64,000 nucleotides of DNA from the human T2T-CHM13v2.0 reference genome, Homo sapiens, in NCBI GenBank assembly GCA_009914755.4, contig CP068257.2:33952001-34016000 (forward strand). The letters run 5' to 3'. The position numbers and the translations under genes were made by a program. Positions 10,015 through 39,269 of this stretch are shown here, in pieces. The notes under the pieces were generated by a model. That model was not told the DNA's origin. It saw only the letters and a program-made list of their open reading frames with translations, and made no database searches. Position 1 is the stretch's first letter. Each line of letters starts with the position of its first letter.

Positions 10015-10131
10015 TTTCAGTTTCTTAAGTAAGAGTGATTCACTTGTGCTGATTCAACTTGAACCATGTTTACATCAGATGCTCTTATGCCCACAATTGA
10101 CAAATCTAAGAGTGGTCATGAAACAAAACGG
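10015..10131 (+). repeat. Local low-copy direct repeat, copy A (~120 bp). Copy B lies at 10673-10795.
   Basis: 'tttcagtttcttaagtaagagtgattcacttgtgctgattcaacttgaaccatgtttacatcagatgctcttatgcccacaattgacaaatctaagagtggtcatgaaacaaaacgga' recurs 658 bp downstream at about 88% identity. Confidence 0.75.
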
Positions 10132-10672
10132 ACCTCACTGGCCCCAAAGTCATCGAATCTACAATTTTGACCTTTAGGCTATGTGCCCACAGAACTGGAC
10201 GACACTGCTGAATTCATGTAACCCTAAGCGCTGTGAAACGCTCCATCACTGTGCTATTTGACAGCAAGGATGGCGCCACTTCTGAGATAACTCATGCCGC
10301 AGAGCTCAACAACATACCCCTTGTTCAAAGTAGAGATGATGGGCGTTGAAAGGGCCATGACACAGAGGTCTTTTGTGTGATCAGACTTACTCTGTGTGGG
10401 GTAATAGGAGTGTCGTCTGAAGAGTGGTTTGGCTGGATAAGACCACGAAAAAAAAAAAGTACCAAACAATCAAAAAGCTTAATCATGGATTATCAAGAAG
10501 ACCATTTTCCCACCCACATTTGATTCTGAATTCAATCAAACCCTTAATGACTCATATGAGGATTTCAGGGTGTTCTATCAAAAATCTGCTGAAATAGACC
10601 CAAAACACAGCAAAATATTAAGGTGAAATATTATCAGTACCAGAAAAAGTATCTCCAATACTTTTTCTCAGT

Positions 10673-10795: not shown

Positions 10796-13700
10796 TTCAG
10801 AAAGCAGGAAAGTATCTCCAGTACTTTTTCTCTTATAAAGAACATACCATTTGTTGGGTAAGCTACTGATGCTAGATGCAGCCCACTATGGAAGCAGGAA
10901 AAGAATCTACTTAGTCACTGAATCAACACTTACCATGTGCCTGGCATGGTGCAAGGCTCATGCAGCAGAATTTATTTCTTCATGCTTTTATTTTGTTTCC
11001 ATCTTTAATAGTGATCAGAGCTATGAAGAAGATCTTGGAGGGTAATGAAACAGAATCACAGAAGGGAATTTTGTTTCATTCAGAACTGGGAACAGCCTAT
11101 TTGAGGGAGGGCAGTCACGTGAGATTTAAAAGATAGTGTTTGAGCTCCTGTGACTCCCAGTGTCTTTTAACTTTGTATTTTTACTGAGACCCACAAAAGA
11201 AATTCATAGGTGACTGCTGGTCCTGGATTTTTAGGGACAACCAAGATTGACATGTGATTAATTTTCTGAAGACAACTAGATTCTGGCCATGACAAGGGGC
11301 TTCTGGGATGAAAAGCTAGGACCACAGAGGGCCAGGGGGGGAAGTGGGAATGAGACCAAAAACACCAATAGAACCAAGAATCAGTGAGGACAGAGCAAGG
11401 GAGAAAGGAGGGTCAGAGAGCAGGCAACATGGCCTCCAAGAAGTTCAGGTGCAGAATGAAGGACATCGGGGGAATATCTGTCCATTAACCTGCCTGGAGC
11501 CCTCTTCGTATTCTCCTAGACACCCGAAACTATTCTGCAGCGTTTTTCTTTGCTGATTTAGACGTTACAAAAAATGTAGTTTCACTGCTGATTTTTCTCC
11601 AGACCATTTGTGCATTCTTGCTCTGAACACCCCAATCCATAATCATTGTCAGCTGAGACCAAACTAGCTGCTAAACTACTTACCAATGTATTCAGTCTCC
11701 ACGGCATCGATCCCAGCAGAAATGCAAATCAGCTTTTCCAGGGCGAACCTCCCTCCTGAAGAAGTGAGTCTAGGCCAGCAACTGCCGCCTGGAGGAATCC
11801 TGAAGTGCCCCCCAGATGTGTAGGGTCTTGGTTGTCACACAGTGCATTTGACACATCACAGTCAGGGGTCCGTAATCTGCTGCCTCCAGCAGTAAGATAA
11901 TGATGTTGTAGTTTCTCTTCTCTTCCTCTTGCCCACTAGAATTTACTTGGATCCTAGCGAATAAAGATGGGAGAAGGGATATCAGTCCTGCCCATCACCT
12001 GCTAGCATCTACCACCATTTTGGGATAGCTGGGCTCTACAGCTGTGTAGACGACAAGGTGCATACCAGTGCCACATAAGCCATGTTTCAGGACCAACCAA
12101 TGGTCAGGGCACACAGTGTAAAGTGAGAGAGAGGAACCAAGGCTGGAGGGCTCAGGGCACATGCCCCAAAACTACAGACACTAAAGGGATTGGAGCCCTG
12201 TTAAATAAAGTGAACCCTCTTTTCCACAATTTATTTCTCTATCAGCCTTGGCAATTGTCCCCACGACAAGAAGGAGCCTAGCTGGGGCCACTCTGCAAAT
12301 TCATGAGGCAGGGGAGACATCCAAGCTGGGCATATGCATGATTATTACAGGAAGAGGAAAACATCTGAGCTATTTAGCATCTCACAGTTCAAATGGGGCG
12401 ATTGCTGAGACACTGGTGTGGAAGAGACAAATGGGGTGGGGAAATTTTTCTAATCTTAATAAAATCTTTTTGCTTTTTCCAGTAAGTAAAGGAGTGAGTG
12501 ATGACGTGTCTGACCCTTCTTTAATATCATCAACTGGAGCGAGAAAGACCTGAAAGAAAATATTTAGAAAAAGAGTGTTCATATTATGCCTTGCCTGTGC
12601 TATGCCTTAATAAATTCTCTCATTAGCAATAAGCCAATTCTATATAAACAATGTTTTCTCAGCAGGCAACAGCAAGTTCATAAGTACTCTTAACACTCAT
12701 TAAAGCTCACATGCTTCAAGAACATGCTTAGAAATATTGTGGGTTTCCTGGCTCTCGGCACATATTTCAATGGGGAATAAATGGGTGCATGGAATACAGT
12801 GAAGAGCAAGTTCCTTCAACAAGTTCTGTCTTTTCTTGCCACTGCTCAGTAACAAAGGAAGCAGTGAGCAAAACAATTATTTGGGCTTTAAATGGAAACA
12901 GGAAAAGACCAGACATCTAAAATTGGAGAAAATGTACATGTCAGAGGCTAATTCAGAATTTTTTAAATGACTTTTTTTGTTATTCTGGGAAGATGTTTTA
13001 AGTTTTTATTGTAAACAAATGTCACTTTTGAGGCAGATGGAAAAGTAATCTAAATTTAGAAAATGTGTCATTATTAATTGACCTTAGTTATCAGAGAAAG
13101 TTTTTTTCAAAGATCTGCTAACTTCAACTCCAAACTGGACACAACTGCCTCCTGTAACTTACTTCCTTTAACGCCTCAATCAACTACAGTAACTCGCATT
13201 TGAGATTGATTTTATTTGCCTTTAACCAAAACTTGTTAGAAACAGCCTGCACAATTATTTCTCTTTCCTCATCCTATTTCTTTTTGGTACTTCTGTGGGG
13301 AAATGTGACCAGTGTTTGCAAAACAACACAAGAAACACCTCTCAATTGTTTTCTGGCATTATTAACTTGTTATTGTTACCAGCAACTCTGCATCTCCACA
13401 ACTATCAATAGTTTATTGCTTGTTTCTTTACTTAGATTCATTGACATTAATAGGGTGAAATGTAATGACTTACGGTCAGCATTTTGGAATAATAAAAATG
13501 ATTAATTTGGAAGTTCTTTGCAATATTCTATACAGTTCAAAAGCCAACATCTAAAAATGTATACTGCATGGAGAGAAATAACAATTTAGTTTCAATTATA
13601 AATTAAATACATGTAAACTCCTTAAATCATTCTTATAATTGGCAACTATAAATCAGTTACCAGGATCTTTCAAGAATATTTAAAGCCATATAGTATAGAA

Positions 13701-16700
13701 ATGTTTTCTATTGATTAAAAATAGATGTAGATAGAGATTCCATACTAGATGCTTACTCACATCTTCATTTACCTACTTTTTCTTTCTCTTATGAAGCAAA
13801 ACTGTTTTTACAAAATAGGATTGTTACTCCCAGGCTCCCCTAATGACTCATTATGATCAAAATGACAAACTTAGTAGCTTTAACTTTAATTGGTTTGGTA
13901 CAATCAATGCTTTAAGTTGGTAAGTAGATTCACTTCTCCATATATTTCACATGTTAAAAGGTTACTTTTATTTTTAATAAAAATAAAATAATTGTCAGTT
14001 TTAATAAAATTACTTCCTTTTTCCTTTTCAACTTCTGCTTTCCTTCTTTCATTTGATGTTATGTACACTTCCAGTGTTGCCAACACTTTACAGTTTCAAC
14101 GCCTTACTGTGAACATGCTTATTTTTAATTTGAAGCAAATTGAAACACATTTTAAGAGTTGAAAGTTCACATCCTCCTTTCAAAAAAACTCAGTGCACTT
14201 CAGTGTGTCACAAACTCAGAGCTGATTACCACTGAGTTAGAGGTCAAATTATTTGTATCCAAATTAGGATTTCTCATCTTTCTTTCTAAAAATTGTCTGT
14301 ATTCTCAAGTTTTTAATAGGAAAAAAAATCTTATTTTTATGATTCTGTTTCTGACAATAATTTTTGAGACAAAGGGATACTTTGGCTCAAAAATTATTTT
14401 AAGAATAAGAAAATCAAGCTCTAGTACACATAATTCCTCATGTGGCAAACAAGAAAAATATAATACTGAATTAACCAACAATTAACTCATTAACAATCTT
14501 CCTTTGTTCAGTGTCTGCTATGTTGTTATTAGAAATCCAGAAAAGCAAGTCTATTGAATAGAATTTTTAAGAAAAAAAGTTAAGTTTTATATTCTACTCT
14601 GAGATGTTCTGGCTGTACTGTCACCTGTCCTAACTGAAACAAGGGTATTTAACATCACTTTTAATATAAATACATTTCATTGACATTTAAGTTATTATCA
14701 AGCCGCTGAAGGGCCTAAGAGTTGATATTCCTTTACTTCAAAAGAGAACATTCCCAGTGACGATGTACCCAGCAACCACATTCATGTGGTTTTGATTTTT
14801 ACTCCTTCTTGTCTTTATAATTTTTACTTTGATTTCTTTCATATGGACACAGAATGACTTAGCAGTGTGACTTTTTTTCTAATTCATTCAATCGGCCATT
14901 CTAAATCTCTCGTTAAGCATCTGATATATAGTCATGTAGTTTATTTAAGTAACTAGGCAGTAGCGCAGGACACAGACTGAAATTAATCCCAGCTGCGTCG
15001 CTACTTAGCTGAGTGACCTTGACTTTGACCTTGCTTAACCTCAATTACCTCACCTGAAAATGGGGACAATAATGATGATTATATAGGATTATTCAGAAGG
15101 TGACATGAGATAAACATAATTAAAGCACATTGCCCTGTGCCTAGCGTATTGTAAACTCTCAAGAAATAGTAGCCACTATGAAAGATAAAAGTGAGTTACT
15201 AAAAAGCTATAAAATTATATGAATTTAATTGTAGAACTTACAAGAAAGTCATTCATTATGTAAAAGAAATCTTAGAATGGAAAAAGGAGCCTCAAATATT
15301 AACATGAGTTAAGACAATAGGGACTGTTTCAATATGGCCAGAGTAATACTGACATGGAGCCAGTATACTGATATTTATGACATTAAGCCCTTTTTGTCCC
15401 ACCAGAATTCTGGGCAGCTCTCTGGGATTGAAATACCTTCTGGGACTTACTAAATGAGCTAATAGGCCCCACAGTCAAGTTACCTTTGAATCCTTAGTTG
15501 TGAAAAACTTGGTGTTGGAGCTCCCAGACTGTATAGTTTAGTTATTGCCTCCCCTATTTTGCTGTAGTATTTTTTTCTGAGTTATTTGTGCTTTGTTACT
15601 TCCCAATCACATACAACTATGTTTATTGTACTCCTCCCAATGGATATGCCATGATACAGTATTTCTTTACTAACAAGCTTTACATCTTAAACACTTTTAA
15701 GGTACGAATTACCAAGGGAAAGAAGTACTTTCCACTCATTTGCCTTTTACCATTTAAGTTTTATTCTTAGCTATATATCAAGTAAGAGCATTTGGTACAT
15801 CCCAAGCCCCAGAACGGGTAATGAGTTCTTTTATTTATTTAAAATATTTGCTGCATTTGTTTCAATATCAAATAAATCATTAGTAATTTCTTTAGTGTTC
15901 AGTACATATTTAAACCAAGAAGAAAAAGAAAAACAAGTATGATCATATTGTGAGGTTTACATGATAAACAGTAAACTGAACTCTTGATTTACCGTAGAGG
16001 AGTGTTATACAGAAAGCATGATCATCCATCTCCATGCGTAAGTTTTTTGACCGTTCATAAGATTTGCCAAGCTTTCCTCACATGATTAAGGTAAGAGTCA
16101 AATTCTAATGTAAGAAATCATTTGTTTTCACCTCAACAATTTTATCTTGACTTTTATTTATGGCCATGTGAATGTCTTCCAGTCCCTACATCTCTCCTCA
16201 ATCAGATTAAAAAAGAAACAGAGAGAAAAAGAAAAAAAAAAATCCCTTTCATTGCATCCCCACAAAGTAACTCATGAAGTTCATCATCTGTGAAGGACAG
16301 AAAAGGCAAATTAACAGTCAGAATGAAAAGGGAACAGGCAGCATCTTGACGTCTCACAGAAGTAGTTTTGGATGTGCTTCCTTTCGTGGTTCCCAGGCCC
16401 AAGTGAAGGTTCCCAAGCACCTTCTTAAGCAAGTTTCATGTTGGCAAAGTTTGTTACGAGTCATGTTTATTATGTCAGTCGATGTTTTTAAGCCTAAACG
16501 AAATTAATAGCATCATGCATGGCTTACAATAAACCCTAATGAAACGTTCAGAACTGTTTAAAAAGCTGTAGCAGGTTTTTAAGGAAATTGGTTGCCTGTA
16601 TTTATTCTTTGAATTAAGTGTTAAAGGAAAACAGAATAATAATATATAAAACCCGGGTTTCCTGTAACAACAATAATTATGATAACTAACATCTGTATAT

Positions 16701-17469
16701 GGCTTTACAGTTTGCAAAGTGCTTTCTCATACATTACCTCATTTAGCAGAGTGGAAATGTTTAATGATCCCAGTTCCAAACTGCCTTTCATTAATAGTAT
16801 ATATATTATATTAATAAGCACATTTAGAAGAAACTATCTTCATAAGCACTCTGCTAAGTGTGAACAAAGGCTGATAAGGAGATGCTGAAATCCGATATCA
16901 ACCCCATAAATCAAATAAACATCGAATAAAATCTGTCAAACACTTCATAACATTGTGTGCGTGTCATCAAACTCAAGGCAAATCCTGCTGTGTCACCTCG
17001 AAATGATGAAGAGAACTAAGGTGTGAGAGCATGCTGTTAGAAGTTTCATTAAAGCCTTATTTACTAGTTCAGAATGAATTTACATTGATCTTTTAAACTA
17101 TTGCTAACCACAAGTGCATTAAACCTAAACAGTCTTCATTTACTGAGAAATAAATGTGTCAGCAGAACCATGACTTTTGTCCAATGTTGTTCCGGCATTT
17201 AAGGCATTTAATTCACAAAGGCTCAGTGTTAAGCTTTTTATTGCTTGTTGTGCTAAAGCATGTTCGTTTAATTGCAAATATATTTCCTTCCTGCATCATT
17301 ATCAAAATTGTTATCTTAAGGAAATATTGTTTTTAAATAATCTGCTGGAAAACCAGTGTGGTACGTGGGCTTATTCAGAATAATTGTTTCCTGCTACAGA
17401 TGGGTTAGCAATTAAGCGGTAACATTGCTTAAACAATTTTAAAAGGAGGTGAGGATAAAAGGAGTCGGA

Positions 17470-17560
17470 TTGTGCTGATCTGAGTTGTAAGAAGCTCTGG
17501 CATTTTTGTGGAGTCAACATGCACTCGTGGCTGATTTAATCAATACCTCACTGTTTACAT
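17470..17560. promoter_or_regulatory. Core of candidate conserved non-coding (enhancer-like) element, part of a CpG-retaining, TAAT-motif-rich block at ~16900-17650
   Basis: Non-repetitive, AT-rich sequence with about 10 CpGs in ~640 bp (e.g. 'tccggcat', 'gttcgttta', 'tacgtggg', 'aagcggtaac', 'gtcggatt', 'ctcgtggc'). Homeodomain-type motifs are dense ('caattaagcggtaacattgcttaa', 'ctgatttaatcaatac', 'taattcac', 'aattgcaa'). This is an inferred call only. Confidence 0.3.
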
Positions 17561-19373
17561 TTTTAAAGAACTTTGTTACTGGTTCCAGGGCCTGATCTAA
17601 TAAATAAGCAATTGCAATGTATTGTATAATTTTGTGAGATGTGAATTATGTCAAAAGTCACCTTAGTCTTTCTGTCTTTGAAATGGAGACAAATGTCTTG
17701 AATTTGACTTTGACCTTGACCTTTTCCTATATTAACTTAGGAAAAAGACTTGAATTCAGGCTTCAGATTTTTAAAATCCCAGTAACACTATTATGAGGAC
17801 ACCCATGCTAAAGACAGAAAATTAGGGACATTATTTTAAATAAGAAAAGAAACAGCAATACCTGACTTCAGATACTCCAGGGATTACATGCATTTCTTAA
17901 AATTGTTTTTCGGTAGCTAAATACAACAGACATGAGGTTTCCATTTCAGTGGGTGAAAAACTATTGACAGTACTCCCACTAAACCCACACTAAATAAGCT
18001 GCTTCATGTTGTCCATTACATGGGACTTTAAAAAATGCTCACTAAAAGATAAATCCTTTGCCTAATTGTATTTAAATTCAAGAAAAGAGCAACTCTTTAC
18101 TGAGGAGATGAGCATAAAGGCACTTTTACGAGTATTCATTATTCCTGGAGCTACTTACATTGATAACTAGAAAGCAAACCACAACAAGCCAAGCTTCCAA
18201 TGGGAAGCAACCAAGGTAACCCACATTTCAATATCACTGTCCAGCTAAAAAAAATCCCAGAAACTGACTAGATATTGTTCTATGTCAAAAGAAGTGAGGA
18301 CTCCTTCTTGTCTCTATTATGACATGGAATTGTGTCTCAGTTTATTTCAGGGGAGAAATAATTTAAAAATGAATAGCAGTGTGAGACTCAAAATGGGTGG
18401 GCCCCTGCAGGAGACCAGTGAGCAATTAGCCACATCCTGCATGGCCAGACTGAGTGACATGGACAACACAAGGGGACAAGTGAGAGACAGAGACAGGTAA
18501 CCACTCCCTGCCTTCATCCACCAGTCTGTGCTCTCAGGGAAATGCCCTCTCTGCCATGGGGATCGGGGTGCTGGCAAGGGGAAGCATGGCATTCCGAAGG
18601 TACAGATGGGACCCACCCCAAACTTCAATGATGCATCTTAAACCTGGACTGCCGTGCAGCCAGGAGGGCATCCGACTTGTCTAGGGCATTTTCTCTTCTT
18701 TCCCTGCAGAGTTAATGGGGCCAGGGGGGTCCAGCAATGGGATGGAAATGGATAGCAGCCATTAAATAGGTACAAGAAAGGGATGTCCGTGTTGGGAAGT
18801 CGGCTGCCTCTCTGAATCCTTTCTCTCAAAGAATGACGGTGTTACCTTGACACGATATGGACATCCTCCCAAGGCTTTGCACGCATGAATCTTTTAACAC
18901 GTTCTTCTCTCGCCGCAACCTTTTCCCGTTGTCACCCTCCTCCTCTCACAGGTCCCTCATCGTTATAAGTATTGCAATTCTGGAGCACTTGTGTGCCCTT
19001 CCAGCGGCTTCGGGGCTCCTCTCTCTTCCCTTACCTTCACACACCTCCCACCACTTTCTTTTTGAGCAAACACTACCTGTGGTTTTCTAGCAGTTTCCAC
19101 CATCCATTTAGGTACTCCAAAGTGTTGGGTTATTGTTTTAAATGCCTTCTTGAAATCAAGACCAAATTCCTTTCTGAGGTCAAAGCTCAGCTTTATTCTT
19201 GGCCACAGTGACCTAATACTCAGCAATCTTCTGCCCTCCATAAAAGCAAATGGCATGCACTAAATTGTGCTGCATGGTAGTAACCCTTCGCTGCTCCAGA
19301 ACTGCAGAAATGCTCAGCTGGGTTTACCTTCTTTTGGTCTGTTCTTACCTTAGCTTTTATAAGACACCAAGTA

Positions 19374-20023
19374 CAGTCACCCCTCAGTATCCATATGGGA
19401 TTGGTTCCAGGACCCTGAGGATTATCTGCAAATGCTCAAATCCCTTATACAAAATGGCACAGTATTTGCATATAACCTACACACATCTTCTATGCAGTCA
19501 AGTGTTACTTAACAACTGGGATGCTTCTGAGGGATTTATCGTTAGTTGGTTTTGTCAATGGATGAACATCACACTGTACTTACACAAACCTAGATGGTAT
19601 AGCCTACCACACAACTAAGTTGGATGGTACAGCCTATTGCTCCTAAGCTACAAACCTGTACAGCATGCTACTGTACTGAATGCTGTAGGCAACTGTAGGA
19701 AAATGCTTAAGTATTTGGGCATCTAAGCATACCTAAACATAGATAAAGTACAGAAAAAATAAGATAACATAATCTTAAGGGACCACCTTTATACATGCAG
19801 TCAGTTGTTGATCAAAAAGTCATTATGGGGTACACGACTTCACTTTAAATCATCTCTAGATTACTTGTAATGCCTAATACAATGTAAATGCTATGTAAAT
19901 ACTTGTTATACTATATATTTAAATTTTTAATTATTTTTTACTACGTCATTTTTTCTAAATATTTTTGATCTTCAGTTGATTGAATCCATGGATACAGAAC
20001 CCACAAATATGGAAAGCTGACTG
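19374..20023 (+). mobile_element. Tigger-like (TcMar) non-autonomous DNA transposon, ~650 bp copy
   Basis: Starts 'cagtcacccctcagtatcc...ggttccaggaccc' and ends 'ggatacagaacccac...gctgactg'. The ends are inverted with respect to each other, and a TA dinucleotide sits immediately outside each end (19372-3 and 20024-5). The internal 'catagataaagtacag...ataatcttaagggaccac...cagttgttgatcaaaaagtcattatgggg' is typical of Tigger3/MER44-type elements, recalled from memory. Confidence 0.55.
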
Positions 20024-29478: not shown

Positions 29479-29515
29479 CGATTGCTTCTTTACACTATCG
29501 TACCACTTTCTGAAT

Positions 29516-29996
29516 GAGACAGCCCTGGGAAAGGGCAGGAAAATGCCACACACAGAGCCCGGACACAGTGACTACACCTAAGTGAGTGCTCCGGGACTGT
29601 GGGCAAAGCACAGTCAGTCATCCTGAGTGAACATCCAGAAATAGGGACCTGATCAGTTTCTCCTCTTGCTTGAAGCCCGGGAGGTTCCCTTCTTGGAAGG
29701 TGTGGGGCTTGTAGAGAGGAAGTCACCTTTGTCTGAAGAGAAGATATCCCTTAATTGTGGTGCATATGGCCCCAGGTGCAACATGGTTAGGGGAGGGCAC
29801 ACAGCCTGGATTCCTGCCTCAGCCTAACCAGCACAGCCTCTGCATGATGCAGAGACAGGCAACAGGATTCTGGAGTCCCTCCTAATCTAGCCCTCTCCTC
29901 CCTCCTTGCAGCCTGGCTTCTGTGCCTGCTCCACAGGGCAGCCTAACCTGCACAGCCCGCCATCTGCATGATGCAGGGACAGGCAACAGGACTCTG
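29516..29996 (+). repeat. Left arm of a large inverted repeat (~480 bp), with ~1.5 copies of a ~122 bp tandem unit at 29817-29996
   Basis: The reverse complement of 33871-34369 aligns along the whole arm at roughly 94% identity (e.g. 'gacagccctgggaaagggcaggaaaatgccacacacagagcccggacacagtgactacacctaagtgagtgctcc'). The tandem unit contains 'cagcctaaccagcacagcc...ctgcatgatgcagagacaggcaacaggattctggag'. The independent minus- and plus-strand ORF peptides at 29887-30099 and 33898-34161 share 'ESCCLSLHHADGG'. Confidence 0.85.
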
Positions 29997-30708
29997 TCAT
30001 TTTGTTGCTTCTTTTCTTTGACCACCAATTCAGTAGCTGACAACAACAAAACCACCTGGAAACTATGTGGACAAATGAACACGGACTCCAAGTCTCCAAA
30101 ATACAAACTCATTTGCTCAACTCTAATAGAAATTGTATCACTGGAAATTACTTTTCTAATTATACATAATAACATAATCAACAAATCCTTATGACGCTAT
30201 ATTTCTGCAGGCAAACAATGTTCAATGTCACCAGCAAGACTACTTATTTAACAAGGAAATTTTTTTAACTGCTTAACAAATCATCAGTGGTTTAGAAATT
30301 TCATAAAATTTCTCATTTCAAAAACGAGAAAATTAAGGCCTTGCGGGGTTAAATCGTTATCAAGTAATCAGTCGGCTCACTGCCCAGTGTGGACACTGGC
30401 CAATATTATGGCACCAGCCTTTGAGAAAAGGAAACCTTTTTTTGAATCCATCTCCCTGACCTGGGGTTTGGGTTGGGTTTTATCAGCATAGGGTGACAGG
30501 CAAGTTCAATCTGATTGGATCCTGGATCCCATCATGGGGTATCTGTTCCTAAATCATTCCCTGATCCTCGGTCAGAGCGAGCGCTTAGGTTCCCGCTGCA
30601 GTTAAACACCTGGTTCATCTGGGCATACTAAGGTTATGACTTTCCACCTGGGAGTCCACGACAACTGAAAAAACTCAAAACTTCTTTAAGTAGAAGTTGA
30701 GCCTGAAG

Positions 30709-33735: not shown

Positions 33736-33870
33736 AAACTAAAAGAGTCTAGTTTGGAAATGGACACATAGACATTTTAAGTGCAGTGTGATGAGGGAAA
33801 ATAGAGGATACAGCAGAAGCAGAGAATCCAGGCTGCAGGAGGGAGGAGAGGGGAAGGTTAGGAGGGGCTC

Positions 33871-34369
33871 CAGAATCCTGTTGCCTGTCCCTGCATCATG
33901 CAGCCGGCAGGGCTGTGCAAGTTAGGCTGCCCTGTCAAGCAGGCAGAGAAGCCAGGCTGCAGGAAGGAGGAGAGGGCTAGATTAGGAGGGGCTCCAGAAT
34001 CCTGTTGCCTGTCTCTGCATCATGCAGATGGTGGGGCTGTGCTGGTTACGCTGCCCTATGGAGCAGGCAGTAACCCAGGCTGCGTGCCCTCCCCTAACCA
34101 TGTTGCACCTGGGGCCATATGCACCACAATTAAGGGACATCTTCTCTTCAGACAAAGGTGACTTCCTCTCTGCAAGCCCCACGCCCTCCAAAAGGGGAAC
34201 CTCCCAGGCTTTAAGCAAGAGGAGAAACTGATCAGGTCCCTAATTCTGGATGATCACTCGGGATGACTGACTATGCTTTGCCCACAGTCCAGGAGCACTC
34301 ACTTAGGTGTAGTCACTGTGTCCGGGCTCTGTGTGTGGCATTTTCCTGCCCTTTCCCAGGGCTGTCTCA
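33871..34369 (-). repeat. Right arm of the large inverted repeat. The ~122 bp tandem array extends to about 33825-34075 (about 2 copies).
   Basis: Reverse complement of the left arm. Tandem copies are 'caggctgcaggagggaggagaggggaaggttaggaggggctccagaatcctgttgcctgtccctgcatcatgcagccggcagggctgtgcaagttaggctgccctg...' and 'caggctgcaggaaggaggagagggctagattaggaggggctccagaatcctgttgcctgtctctgcatcatgcagatggtgg...'. Confidence 0.85.
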
Positions 34370-37300: not shown

Positions 37301-39269
37301 TAAGTTCTTAAAGGGAACAACAAAGAAATGTGCAATGTGACTCAATGACATAAGCCGTGGTTTAAGCCTGTCTGCGCTTTTCGAGAGTAATCATATGTAC
37401 CATTTCGTAAGCCCCTTGCTACGTACCAGACACTGTGCCAGGTGCTCCGTATGTATTATTTCTAGTATTCCTCCCCAGATCCTACATGTCAGAGATTATT
37501 ATTATTCCCATTTTATAGATAAGAAAACTGACTTTCAGAAAAGTAAAGTTACTTGCTCAAGCGCACAGAGCATGTGGGATTTAAAGCCAGAATTCATCTT
37601 TCTCTCTGGTCTATTTCCTCAGGATTAAAGGCTCACACTTTAAGCACTGATGAGGCAGAATATTACTGATATAACTCGTTTCTGATCTATATAGACTTTG
37701 GAAATATCTCAGGGTAGCCACTTCCTGGCCTACAGAACACTAATTTTGTTCAGGCAGTAACATGTCATCCTGGCTGAATTATTTGTTCTAGGAAAATCAT
37801 GAAAACCCCAATTGTCTTAGCCAGTGACTGGTTTAGTGATTGCTATGTGACTCTCTTCTGACCAAAGAGATGAAAAAAAGCCTGTTCTTTACTTCTGGGA
37901 AAGACTTTCCTCCCTGACCGAGAAGACCTGTGGAAGAGAAAGCCCTTTTGTGGCAGCTCCTCCTGCTATCTGTAACACTATCATGTGAGGACATAATGGT
38001 TGGAGCAGGGGCAGCTGTCTTGTGTGCATGAGTGGAAGGCAGTAGGCATTGCTCATACTCTAAGGATATCGGAATGAAGAAGAAAAACTTTAGAAGCTTG
38101 GTGTCCTTGTAACCCCTCAAGCCTACCCTGAGACCACTTCCATGATTTTTGTAACATCAGTAAGTGTTCTTACGGCTTAAGCCACTGTCAACAAATTTTC
38201 TATTACTCCAAATGCATCCCAGCTGACATAGTTATAAAGTAGAATCAAATCATAATTTATATTTATTCTGAAAATGAAATTTGAGTGTTTTTGGTGGCTG
38301 AGTTGCTGACTCTGAATATGGCTCTACTCCTCAAAGTCACCTAAAAGGACTATTAGTGACTTGGAGATTTGAACCAACTCTAATTCTTTCTTTGCTTCTG
38401 TAGGAGAGGCAAAACTTTTCCTCAACCCTCTTAGGTTCTGCAGCAGAGGTTTGCAAGTTCAACTAACGAAAGCCAGATTAGCAGGAGAAACACATACAGA
38501 TTATATTTGATGTTAATTTTTTTACATGACACAGGGGACTTCGTAGAGAAGAAGTGAAAACCTGAAAGGAACAGGTAGAATTGAGGGCTTATATACCATT
38601 TTAACAAACAGTGATAAATTTGTGGGGAAGTGACACGATAAAGAGGTTTGGGACAATAAATTGTGGGAAAAGGACTAGAAAATATACTGGGGTAACCAAT
38701 GAAACAAAAGGGTTATTTTAGGAAGGTTTATTTGTACAGACTCATCTTGGTATCATCTCGCCATCTCTGATGATACAAATGTTATCTTCTTCCTGGTACC
38801 AGAATACCTTTCTCATAGGAAATTTATGCCCTCCTTTTAGGGAGAAAAGTAGGGGGCAGATAGCCCTTCCCATATCTGCTTTTCTTAATTGCCTTCAGCT
38901 CAAAATAATCAATATGCCAAAGCAGCATATTTTGGGGTGACATATTCTGATCACTTTTACTTCAAAATAAATAATATATCTATGATTTTACCTATTTAAA
39001 ATATAATGTATCTTTTATATTTAAATAATTTATATTTAAGTTTTAAATATAGATATAATTAAAACATTAATTGTATAATATTGTCATAATATTACTAAAT
39101 TGCCTACTAACATTTAATCACAATGATTACTGCATTTTGCATTTAAACTTTTTAAATTAGTATGTAATTATTATAACTTAACCATTAAAGAAATGCATAA
39201 AGCAAAAGTGAAGGCTATCCCAGAATTAAAATGTACTAAAACTTCTTTTACTAATTATAAAATGAATTT

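What the first reader, a model, noticed from the sequence alone, without database searches (positions are those of the whole stretch)
15950..17660. Cluster of non-repetitive, AT-rich blocks with retained CpGs and dense TAAT motifs: candidate conserved non-coding (developmental-enhancer-like) elements
Between about 15.95 and 17.66 kb I see no interspersed repeats. GC content is low (about 35%), yet CpGs are frequent (about 10 in 16890-17530, about 8 in 16340-16660). That is two- to three-fold above the usual CpG-depleted genomic background and suggests purifying selection. Motif content is typical of homeodomain-bound enhancers: 'caattaagcggtaacattgcttaa' (6 bp inverted arms around a 9 bp spacer), 'ctgatttaatcaatac' (PBX/HOX-like TGATTNAT variant), repeated 'taattg/caatta/ttaatt', a CRE-like 'ttgacgtctca' at 16348, and two consensus splice-donor-like 'gtaagt/gtaaga' sites at 16027 and 16092. 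Gene-poor regions next to developmental regulators are where such elements concentrate.
Basis: inference. Interest (0 to 1): 0.6.

Follow-up and report, generated by a model that had tools for sequence, protein, structure and literature searches.

The report
Possible conserved non-coding element, unproven
This is a single-copy, non-coding, AT-rich stretch of primate DNA that has kept about twice as many CpG sites as its surroundings, which fits an ordinary conserved regulatory element, but the cited binding motifs are at chance level and conservation could not be tested here.

Summary
The interval 15950-17660 has GC 0.349 and 20 CpGs. CpG o/e is 0.38, against 0.20 for the window and 0.22 for pooled ancient MIR copies. 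It is the top Alu-free 1.7-kb stretch of the window for CpG retention. After allowing for the scan the excess is only suggestive (P about 0.07).

The interval is non-coding, unstructured as RNA, and free of every repeat family I could test. Every motif argument fails: TAAT, TAATTR, TGATTNAT, CRE half-sites, splice-donor hexamers and 6-bp inverted repeats all occur at the rate AT-rich sequence gives. The "PBX/HOX-like" string does not fit the published TGATNNAT consensus.

A sample of 21 real human-fugu CNEs has pooled CpG o/e 0.385 and 18.5 TAAT/kb, almost exactly the interval's values. The region was not in the stored parts of the CONDOR or VISTA sets. No tool here holds vertebrate genomes, so conservation is untested.

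Strand asymmetry suggests a long intron transcribed on the minus strand, not a gene desert.

Verdict: a plausible (about 50%) ordinary constrained cis-regulatory element of a well-known kind. Low interest.

The parts
15950..16339 (.). Left part of the flagged interval: unique AT-rich DNA with background CpG content. Contains an A-rich run (about 16205-16243) and the 'splice-donor-like' hexamers (GTAAGT 16038; GTAAGA 16091, 16110).
   Evidence: 3 CpGs, o/e 0.25, GC 0.353. A/T runs slightly above background. GTAAG[TA] count is 4 across the whole 15950-17660 interval vs 1.2-1.6 expected, p=0.04 uncorrected. There is nothing here to distinguish it from neutral DNA.
16340..16660 (.). CpG-retaining block 1. 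Contains the CRE-like TTGACGTCTCA (16346).
   Evidence: 7 CpGs, o/e 0.66, GC 0.364; Poisson P=0.005 at background o/e. No ORF or protein similarity. RNA folding z=+0.10 and +0.52. TpG+CpA o/e is 1.10, low relative to background (17th percentile), which fits less CpG decay.
16661..16889 (.). CpG-free spacer between the two blocks.
   Evidence: 0 CpGs in 231 bp and no A/T run of 4 or more. A weak similarity to the MIR tail by Smith-Waterman (score 37.5 vs shuffle maximum 34) was not supported by nhmmer at E<=10. The sub-threshold Pfam LIDHydrolase match at 16600-16683(-) crosses a stop codon and is taken as chance.
16890..17640 (.). CpG-retaining block 2. Contains the 6-bp-arm inverted repeat (17409-17432) and CTGATTTAATCAATAC (17531-17546).
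   Evidence: 10 CpGs; o/e 0.49 over 16890-17530 and 0.44 over 16890-17640; Poisson P=0.007. High zlib complexity (95th percentile) and few A/T runs (15th-18th percentile), neither significant. RNA folding z=+2.07 and +1.47, so no structure. Eight 12-mers tested in both orientations and one in a single orientation were absent from the stored CONDOR/VISTA sets.
14965..15172 (+). Nearest identified repeat on the left: a MIR SINE copy that bounds the repeat-free stretch.
   Evidence: CpG o/e 0.36.
19375..20023 (-). Nearest identified repeat on the right: a split MER2-type DNA transposon copy that bounds the repeat-free stretch.
   Evidence: A full-length copy at 42018-42348 (E=1.6e-58) serves as a positive control.

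Best explanation
The interval is single-copy, non-coding DNA, probably inside a long intron of a gene transcribed on the minus strand. Two blocks (16340-16660 and 16890-17640) have lost fewer CpGs than neutral DNA of the same window. The most likely reason is that at least part of it is an evolutionarily constrained cis-regulatory element of the ordinary CNE/enhancer type. Such elements work as double-stranded DNA bound by transcription factors. Selection on the bound sequence, and/or the reduced germline methylation typical of factor-bound distal elements, slows the methyl-CpG to TpG decay.

Shown here: uniqueness, absence of coding or RNA signals, and CpG retention equal to that of real fish-human CNEs. 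Inferred: constraint, protein binding and enhancer activity.
For: CpG o/e is 0.38 (blocks 0.66 and 0.49) against 0.20 for the window and 0.22 for six pooled MIR copies, which are the neutral ancient baseline. The interval is the top-ranked Alu-free 1.7-kb window; only 0.4% of such windows reach it and all of those overlap it. Twenty-one genuine CONDOR human-fugu CNEs have pooled CpG o/e 0.385 (median 0.39), GC 0.396 and 18.5 TAAT/kb, against 0.384, 0.349 and 18.7 for the interval. The interval is single-copy and free of Alu, MIR, L2 and MER2 across 15173-19374. There is no ORF, no Pfam domain and no protein homologue, no Rfam family even in permissive mode, and no RNA structure. CNEs are typically AT-rich, single-copy and often intronic in bystander genes (PMC5728398).
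Against: The CpG excess rests on about 10 extra CpGs, and 7% of homogeneous null simulations give an equal maximum somewhere in the window. Blocks of 320 bp with o/e 0.6-0.7 occur at about eight other non-Alu sites, and a single MIR copy reaches 0.52. No TF motif class exceeds the composition-matched expectation, and TAATTA-type enrichment, a population property of CNEs, is absent. Complexity and homopolymer statistics are within background. The region is not in the stored ~30% of CONDOR or the stored part of VISTA 2011. No cross-species sequence was obtained at all.
Confidence: 0.5

Rival explanations
1. Ordinary neutral single-copy intronic or intergenic DNA. The CpG excess is the upper tail of normal local fluctuation, picked out because the reader scanned 64 kb for something unusual. 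It has no function.
For: Window-wide simulation gives P about 0.07. The next-best windows (0.36, 0.34, 0.32) form a continuous tail. Similar 320-bp blocks occur elsewhere, and a neutral MIR copy reaches 0.52. All motif, inverted-repeat, complexity and homopolymer statistics are at background. The region is absent from the stored CNE and VISTA sets.
Against: It is still the single most CpG-retaining Alu-free stretch of the window, with two adjacent blocks at 2.6-3.5x baseline. Its value coincides with the real-CNE mean rather than the neutral mean. It lies in a 4.2-kb stretch free of all tested repeats.
Confidence: 0.35
2. A middle-aged insertion, such as a fragment of a TE family I could not test (LTR, L1 UTR, rare DNA transposon) or a retrocopied UTR, about 25-40 Myr old. 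On this reading it simply has not finished losing its CpGs.
For: AluS-age copies in the same window still show o/e 0.39-0.51, similar to the blocks. An A-rich run lies at about 16205-16243.
Against: There is no diverged copy elsewhere in the window and no TE protein remnant in six frames. The base composition is strand-symmetric, unlike L1 (AT skew +0.02). I saw no target-site duplication or terminal repeats. The CpG-free spacer in the middle argues against one uniformly young insert.
Confidence: 0.08
3. Part of a transcribed non-coding exon, meaning a lncRNA or a long alternative 3' UTR, whose sequence is constrained at the RNA level.
For: Strand asymmetry indicates the window is transcribed in the germline. 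AT-rich, CpG-retaining unique sequence is also typical of long conserved 3' UTRs (own knowledge).
Against: No Rfam family matches at gathering threshold or at E<=1. Folding is no better, or worse, than shuffles on both strands. No exon could be found anywhere in the window to anchor a transcript. The splice-donor hexamers are at chance level.
Confidence: 0.05

Closest known systems
Vertebrate conserved non-coding elements (CONDOR / UCNEbase / ANCORA-type CNEs)
   Same: Single-copy, non-coding and AT-rich. CpG o/e (0.38) and TAAT density (18.7/kb) match a sample of 21 CONDOR CNEs (0.385, 18.5/kb). An intronic location is common for CNEs (PMC5728398).
   Different: The defining property, cross-species conservation, was not tested. 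The region is not found in the stored ~30% of the CONDOR set. There is no TAATTA enrichment over composition.
VISTA-type developmental enhancers / Pbx-Hox-signature enhancers (Parker et al. 2011, PMC3261376)
   Same: Sequence composition is similar, and homeodomain-core-containing strings are present.
   Different: CTGATTTAATCAATAC does not contain TGATNNAT or TGATNNATKR on either strand (sequence read against the definition). Motif counts are at chance. The region is absent from the stored part of the 1,307 VISTA sequences. No activity data are available.
Low-methylated regions at distal regulatory elements (own knowledge: Stadler et al. 2011)
   Same: CpG-poor DNA, not a CpG island, in which CpGs nevertheless persist. 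This would explain the retention without strong selection on each base.
   Different: The methylation state is unknown here. This is an inference only.
CpG island
   Same: Locally raised CpG o/e (block 1 = 0.66).
   Different: GC is 0.35-0.36, far below the 0.50 criterion, with only 7-10 CpGs per block. It is not a CpG island.
Exapted ancient repeats (MIR, LF-SINE or AmnSINE-derived CNEs)
   Same: A weak MIR-tail-like similarity at 16665-16746.
   Different: nhmmer gives no hit at E<=10, while six true MIRs in the window score E<1e-3. This was rejected.

Membership tests
Conserved non-coding element (CNE/UCNE) | Sequence conservation across distant vertebrates (for example human-fugu alignment, or at least 95% over at least 200 bp between human and chicken) | not testable with these tools
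   No vertebrate genomes are available. The indirect routes found nothing: spurious-ORF search, metagenome and prokaryote scans gave seed-only random bacterial hits, and 12-mers were absent from the stored ~30% of CONDOR (positive control found).
Conserved non-coding element (CNE/UCNE) | Non-coding: no ORF, no protein homology | tested here: met
   The longest stop-free stretch is 83 aa. There are no homologues among 5.8 billion proteins. Six-frame Pfam gives only a sub-threshold 28-aa match crossing a stop codon.
Conserved non-coding element (CNE/UCNE) | Single copy, not an interspersed repeat | tested here: met
   No diverged copy in the window. No Alu, MIR, L2 3' end, Tigger1 5' end or MER2.
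Conserved non-coding element (CNE/UCNE) | AT-rich with TAATTA/homeodomain-core enrichment (a population-level property, PMC5728398) | tested here: not met
   The interval is AT-rich (GC 0.349) but no more so than its flanks. TAAT is 32 vs 27-28 expected, and TAATTR 4 vs 3.1-3.6.
Conserved non-coding element (CNE/UCNE) | Retention of mutable CpGs relative to neutral neighbours (a correlate, not a definition) | tested here: inconclusive
   o/e is 0.38 vs 0.20 background and 0.22 in MIRs, and equals the real-CNE mean of 0.385. The window-wide P is about 0.07.
Developmental enhancer | Open chromatin, H3K27ac or reporter activity | not testable with these tools
   No epigenomic or functional data are accessible, and the locus could not be named.
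Developmental enhancer | Clustering of TF-binding motifs above composition-matched expectation | tested here: not met
   All seven motif classes are within background. Inverted repeats are 8 vs 7.7 expected.
Pbx-Hox-signature enhancer | TGATNNAT (stringent form TGATNNATKR) motif | tested here: not met
   The definition comes from PMC3261376. The flagged string reads TGATTTAA on the + strand and TGATTAAA on the - strand, and neither ends in AT. TGATTNAT occurs once in the interval vs 0.8 expected.
CpG island | GC >= 0.50, CpG o/e >= 0.6, length >= 200 bp | tested here: not met
   GC is 0.35-0.36, and only block 1 reaches o/e 0.66.
Structured non-coding RNA (Rfam family) | Covariance-model match, or folding energy below shuffles | tested here: not met
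   Zero Rfam hits at gathering threshold or at E<=1. Folding z-scores are +0.1 to +2.1.

The most novel reading that the evidence does not exclude
The two blocks are a pair of deeply conserved (bird- or fish-level) enhancers sitting in a very long intron of a 'bystander' gene transcribed on the minus strand, and they regulate a distant developmental gene within a genomic regulatory block. Even then this would be a new instance of a well-described class, and it is almost certainly already present in the phastCons and cCRE tracks.
Probability: 0.15. Interest if true: 0.3.

Novelty: already known. Interest (0 to 1): 0.12.

Why it matters
If real, this is one more conserved intronic regulatory element in a primate, presumably human, genome. 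That class is catalogued genome-wide by conservation and chromatin tracks, so it would matter only for the biology of whichever gene it controls, for example when interpreting non-coding variants there. The methodological result is more useful. Motif 'density' read by eye in AT-rich DNA is uninformative. CpG retention relative to local ancient repeats is a usable but weak single-sequence proxy for constraint. Here it matches real CNEs numerically, yet it is only marginally significant once the scan over the window is taken into account.

Tried and rejected
1. Spurious-ORF route to orthologues. I queried 610 aa of concatenated stop-free stretches from the region against 5.8 billion proteins and got no hit.

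2. Collection scans. The pseudo-protein scan of JGI metagenome contigs gave 64 pattern matches, none confirmed. Exact 18-mer scans of metagenome and GTDB genome contigs gave 22 loci, all seed-only. L002 had a second colinear 24-bp match but is bacterial coding DNA (CpG o/e 0.84, TonB-receptor-like ORF), so this was coincidence.

3. Naming the locus through exons. A codon-usage scan of all stop-free stretches found nothing above 21.5 bits, and the best scores lie in a GC-rich repeat. The 63 best peptides (2,901 aa) have no homologue.

4. Full-text search of 8 million papers for six 16-17-mers from the region found 0 papers.

5. The Woolfe 2005 supplement holds only 25 Fugu amplicons and was not pursued.

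6. MIR origin of the CpG-free spacer. Smith-Waterman gave a marginal score, and nhmmer rejected it.

7. The Pfam LIDHydrolase hit (20.3 bits, below the cutoff of 27; 28 aa; crosses a stop codon) was rejected as chance.

8. Structured RNA was rejected.

9. Complexity, homopolymer and TpG/CpA statistics as constraint proxies were uninformative.

Full report
WHAT THE WINDOW IS

The 64-kb window has GC 0.388 and a CpG o/e of 0.20. It also carries six MIR copies, L2 3' ends, and MER2-type DNA transposons. It is therefore primate, presumably human, DNA.

No Rfam family matches anywhere in the window. No stretch has the codon usage of a real exon: the maximum is 21.5 bits, inside a GC-rich repeat. 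The 63 best exon-like peptides have no homologue among 5.8 billion proteins. As far as I can tell the window is entirely non-coding, and I could not name the locus.

CHECKING THE OBSERVATION

- The interval 15950-17660 has GC 0.349 and 20 CpGs.
- There are 10 CpGs in 16890-17530 and 7 (not 8) in 16340-16660.
- CpG o/e is 0.38 for the interval, and 0.66 and 0.49 for the two blocks. The background is 0.19-0.20.
- The 231 bp between the blocks have no CpG at all.
- All the quoted strings are present within about 11 bp of the stated positions.

The claim of no interspersed repeats holds as far as I could test it. There is no Alu, and no MIR by nhmmer even at E<=10, although six true MIRs score E<1e-3. 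There is no L2 3' end or MER2-type element, while positive controls elsewhere score down to E=1.6e-58. No part of 15500-18200 has a diverged copy elsewhere in the window. The repeat-free stretch runs from the MIR ending at 15172 to the MER2-type copy starting at 19375.

THE MOTIF ARGUMENT FAILS

I compared motif counts with GC-matched windows of the same sequence and with first-order Markov simulations:

| Motif | Observed | Expected |
|---|---|---|
| TAAT/ATTA | 32 | 27-28 (p=0.21) |
| TAATTR | 4 | 3.1-3.6 |
| TGATTNAT | 1 | 0.8 |
| TGACGT | 1 | 0.2-0.3 |
| GTAAG[TA] | 4 | 1.2-1.6 (p=0.04, uncorrected) |

Inverted repeats with 6-bp arms occur 8 times against 7.7 expected. The string called PBX/HOX-like reads TGATTTAA on one strand and TGATTAAA on the other. 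It does not satisfy the TGATNNAT consensus used to define Pbx-Hox signatures in CNEs (PMC3261376). The 'dense TAAT' impression is simply AT-richness.

HOW STRONG IS THE CpG SIGNAL?

The six MIR copies are more than 100 Myr old and mostly neutral. Pooled, they have o/e 0.22, which equals the window mean and so serves as the neutral baseline. The interval therefore holds about 10 more CpGs than expected (Poisson P about 0.003).

Among Alu-free 1.7-kb windows it ranks first. Only 0.4% reach its value, and all of those overlap it. The next best are 0.36, 0.34 and 0.32.

There are three cautions.
- Under a homogeneous Markov null trained on the Alu-masked window, the maximum over all positions averages 0.343 +/- 0.028, and 7% of simulations reach the observed value.
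- At 320-bp resolution, blocks with o/e 0.6-0.7 occur at about eight other non-Alu places.
- A single MIR copy reaches 0.52.

The interval is the most extreme stretch of the window, but only marginally beyond what a scan would turn up by chance.

CALIBRATION AGAINST REAL CNEs

The supplements of PMC3261376 hold the CONDOR human-fugu CNE set and the 2011 VISTA sequences, each truncated at about 400 kb when stored. I took 21 CNEs of about 135 bp or more, in file order, totalling 5.3 kb. They have pooled GC 0.396, CpG o/e 0.385 (median 0.39, interquartile range 0.17-0.54) and 18.5 TAAT/kb. The flagged interval has 0.349, 0.384 and 18.7.

So the interval is numerically CNE-like in CpG retention, and the CNE value is about twice the neutral value. 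This is the best positive evidence I have.

I then searched the stored sequence files with 12-mers from both blocks: eleven positions in both orientations and one in a single orientation. None occurs, while a positive-control 12-mer was found. This is a weak negative for fish-level conservation and for being a VISTA-tested element, because only about 30% of CONDOR and a fraction of VISTA are stored.

OTHER RIVALS

Coding exon. The longest stop-free stretch is 83 aa and there are no homologues. Six-frame Pfam gives only a 28-aa, sub-threshold LIDHydrolase match that crosses a stop codon. Rejected.

Structured RNA. There are no Rfam hits even at E<=1, and folding z-scores are +0.1 to +2.1 on both strands. 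Rejected.

Exapted MIR. A marginal Smith-Waterman score was not confirmed by nhmmer. Rejected.

Middle-aged insertion. AluS-age copies in the window still have o/e 0.39-0.51, so an untested TE of that age could mimic the signal. Against this, there is no second copy, no TE protein remnant, a strand-symmetric composition, and a CpG-free spacer in the middle.

Complexity, homopolymer and TpG/CpA statistics are all within background and do not discriminate between the explanations.

CONTEXT

After masking repeats, the + strand has (T-A)/(T+A) = -0.033 and (G-C)/(G+C) = -0.037. The sign is the same in 8 of 8 and 7 of 8 sub-windows respectively. The minus strand is thus T- and G-rich by about 3.5%. 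That is the direction expected for the non-template strand of a germline-transcribed unit. PMC2817419 reports an A->G excess on the non-template strand that is stronger in introns than in intergenic DNA. That about 3.5% matches the size usually seen in human introns is from my own knowledge of Touchon 2003 and Green 2003.

The window is therefore more likely part of a very long intron than of a gene desert, although replication-associated skew is an alternative. CNEs are frequently intronic in bystander genes (PMC5728398), so this does not count against the enhancer reading. It does correct the 'gene-poor region' premise.

ATTEMPTS TO OBTAIN ORTHOLOGOUS DNA

All attempts failed.
- The protein collection contains no spurious ORFs from this region.
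- The JGI metagenome scan with back-translated patterns found no relative.
- Exact 18-mer scans of metagenome and prokaryotic genome contigs returned 22 random bacterial matches. One of them, L002, had a colinear second match that proved to be coincidence in bacterial coding DNA.
- Full-text k-mer search found no paper.

Conservation, which is the decisive property, therefore remains untested.

VERDICT

CpG retention, composition, uniqueness and the quoted strings are real. Motif enrichment is not.

The interpretation cannot be decided here. I weighed a window-wide P of about 0.07 under neutrality against a typical-CNE value under constraint, with a moderate prior that such a window contains a constrained block. 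On that basis:
- about 0.5 that the interval contains an ordinary constrained or hypomethylated cis-regulatory element;
- about 0.35 that it is neutral DNA in the tail of the distribution;
- about 0.08 for an unrecognised middle-aged insertion;
- about 0.05 for a transcribed non-coding exon.

Deep (bird- or fish-level) conservation gets about 0.15. In every case the kind of element is well known and, for a human locus, already catalogued in public conservation and chromatin tracks. Interest is low.

Noticed in passing
window 1-64000 (whole window): Consistent strand asymmetry after repeat masking: the + strand has S_TA=-0.033 and S_GC=-0.037, with the same sign in nearly all 8-kb sub-windows. 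This suggests the window lies in a long intron (more than 64 kb, no exon found) of a gene transcribed on the minus strand. Replication skew is the alternative.
   Followed up: partly
window 29515-29906 and 33837-34369: Inverted duplication with arms of about 305 + 73 nt, 93-95% complementary, and about 4.0-4.2 kb between the arms. The right arm overlaps a 124-bp tandem duplication (33819-34083, 2.1 copies, 86% matches). It could be two copies of one repeat family in opposite orientation, or a local inverted segmental duplication.
   Followed up: partly
window 18788-19011: 12 CpGs in 224 bp at GC 0.49 (o/e 0.67), about 1.1 kb to the right of the flagged interval and inside the same repeat-free stretch. 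It is the densest non-Alu CpG cluster of the window and could be a second candidate element or a weak CpG-island-like region.
   Followed up: no
window 46814-46985; 30325-30373; 10129-10414; 11467-11744; 14704-14999: Other non-Alu blocks with CpG o/e 0.5-0.67 (for example 7 CpGs within 172 bp at 46.8 kb). They are either further candidate constrained elements or a sign that CpG retention fluctuates widely in this window.
   Followed up: no
It accounts for the highest CpG peak of the window.
   Followed up: yes
window 42018-42348 (-) and 19375-19494 + 19839-20023 (-): A full-length MER2-type non-autonomous DNA transposon (E=1.6e-58 against a recalled consensus), and a second copy split by about 345 bp of other sequence. 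The 122-aa ORF at 19250-19618 is just the translation of part of that second copy.
   Followed up: partly
window 37401-37595 (-) and 14965-15172 (+): Two of the six MIR copies retain unusually many CpGs (o/e 0.52 and 0.36, against 0-0.3 in the others). They may be exapted MIRs, or this may be small-number noise.
   Followed up: no
window 61511-61844 and 53167-53244: Compound microsatellites: (GT)25 followed by a long degenerate (TA/TG/CA)n array, and (AT)16(AG)23. They generate the spurious 110-142 aa ORFs at 61.5-61.9 kb.
   Followed up: yes
L002 6698-7020 (JGI contig Ga0164320_10002002): A bacterial contig shares two colinear 23-24-bp near-exact matches with window 17083-17106 and 17408-17430 at similar spacing (300 vs 325 bp). 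It looked like an orthologue but is bacterial coding DNA. This is a caution about short colinear seeds.
   Followed up: yes
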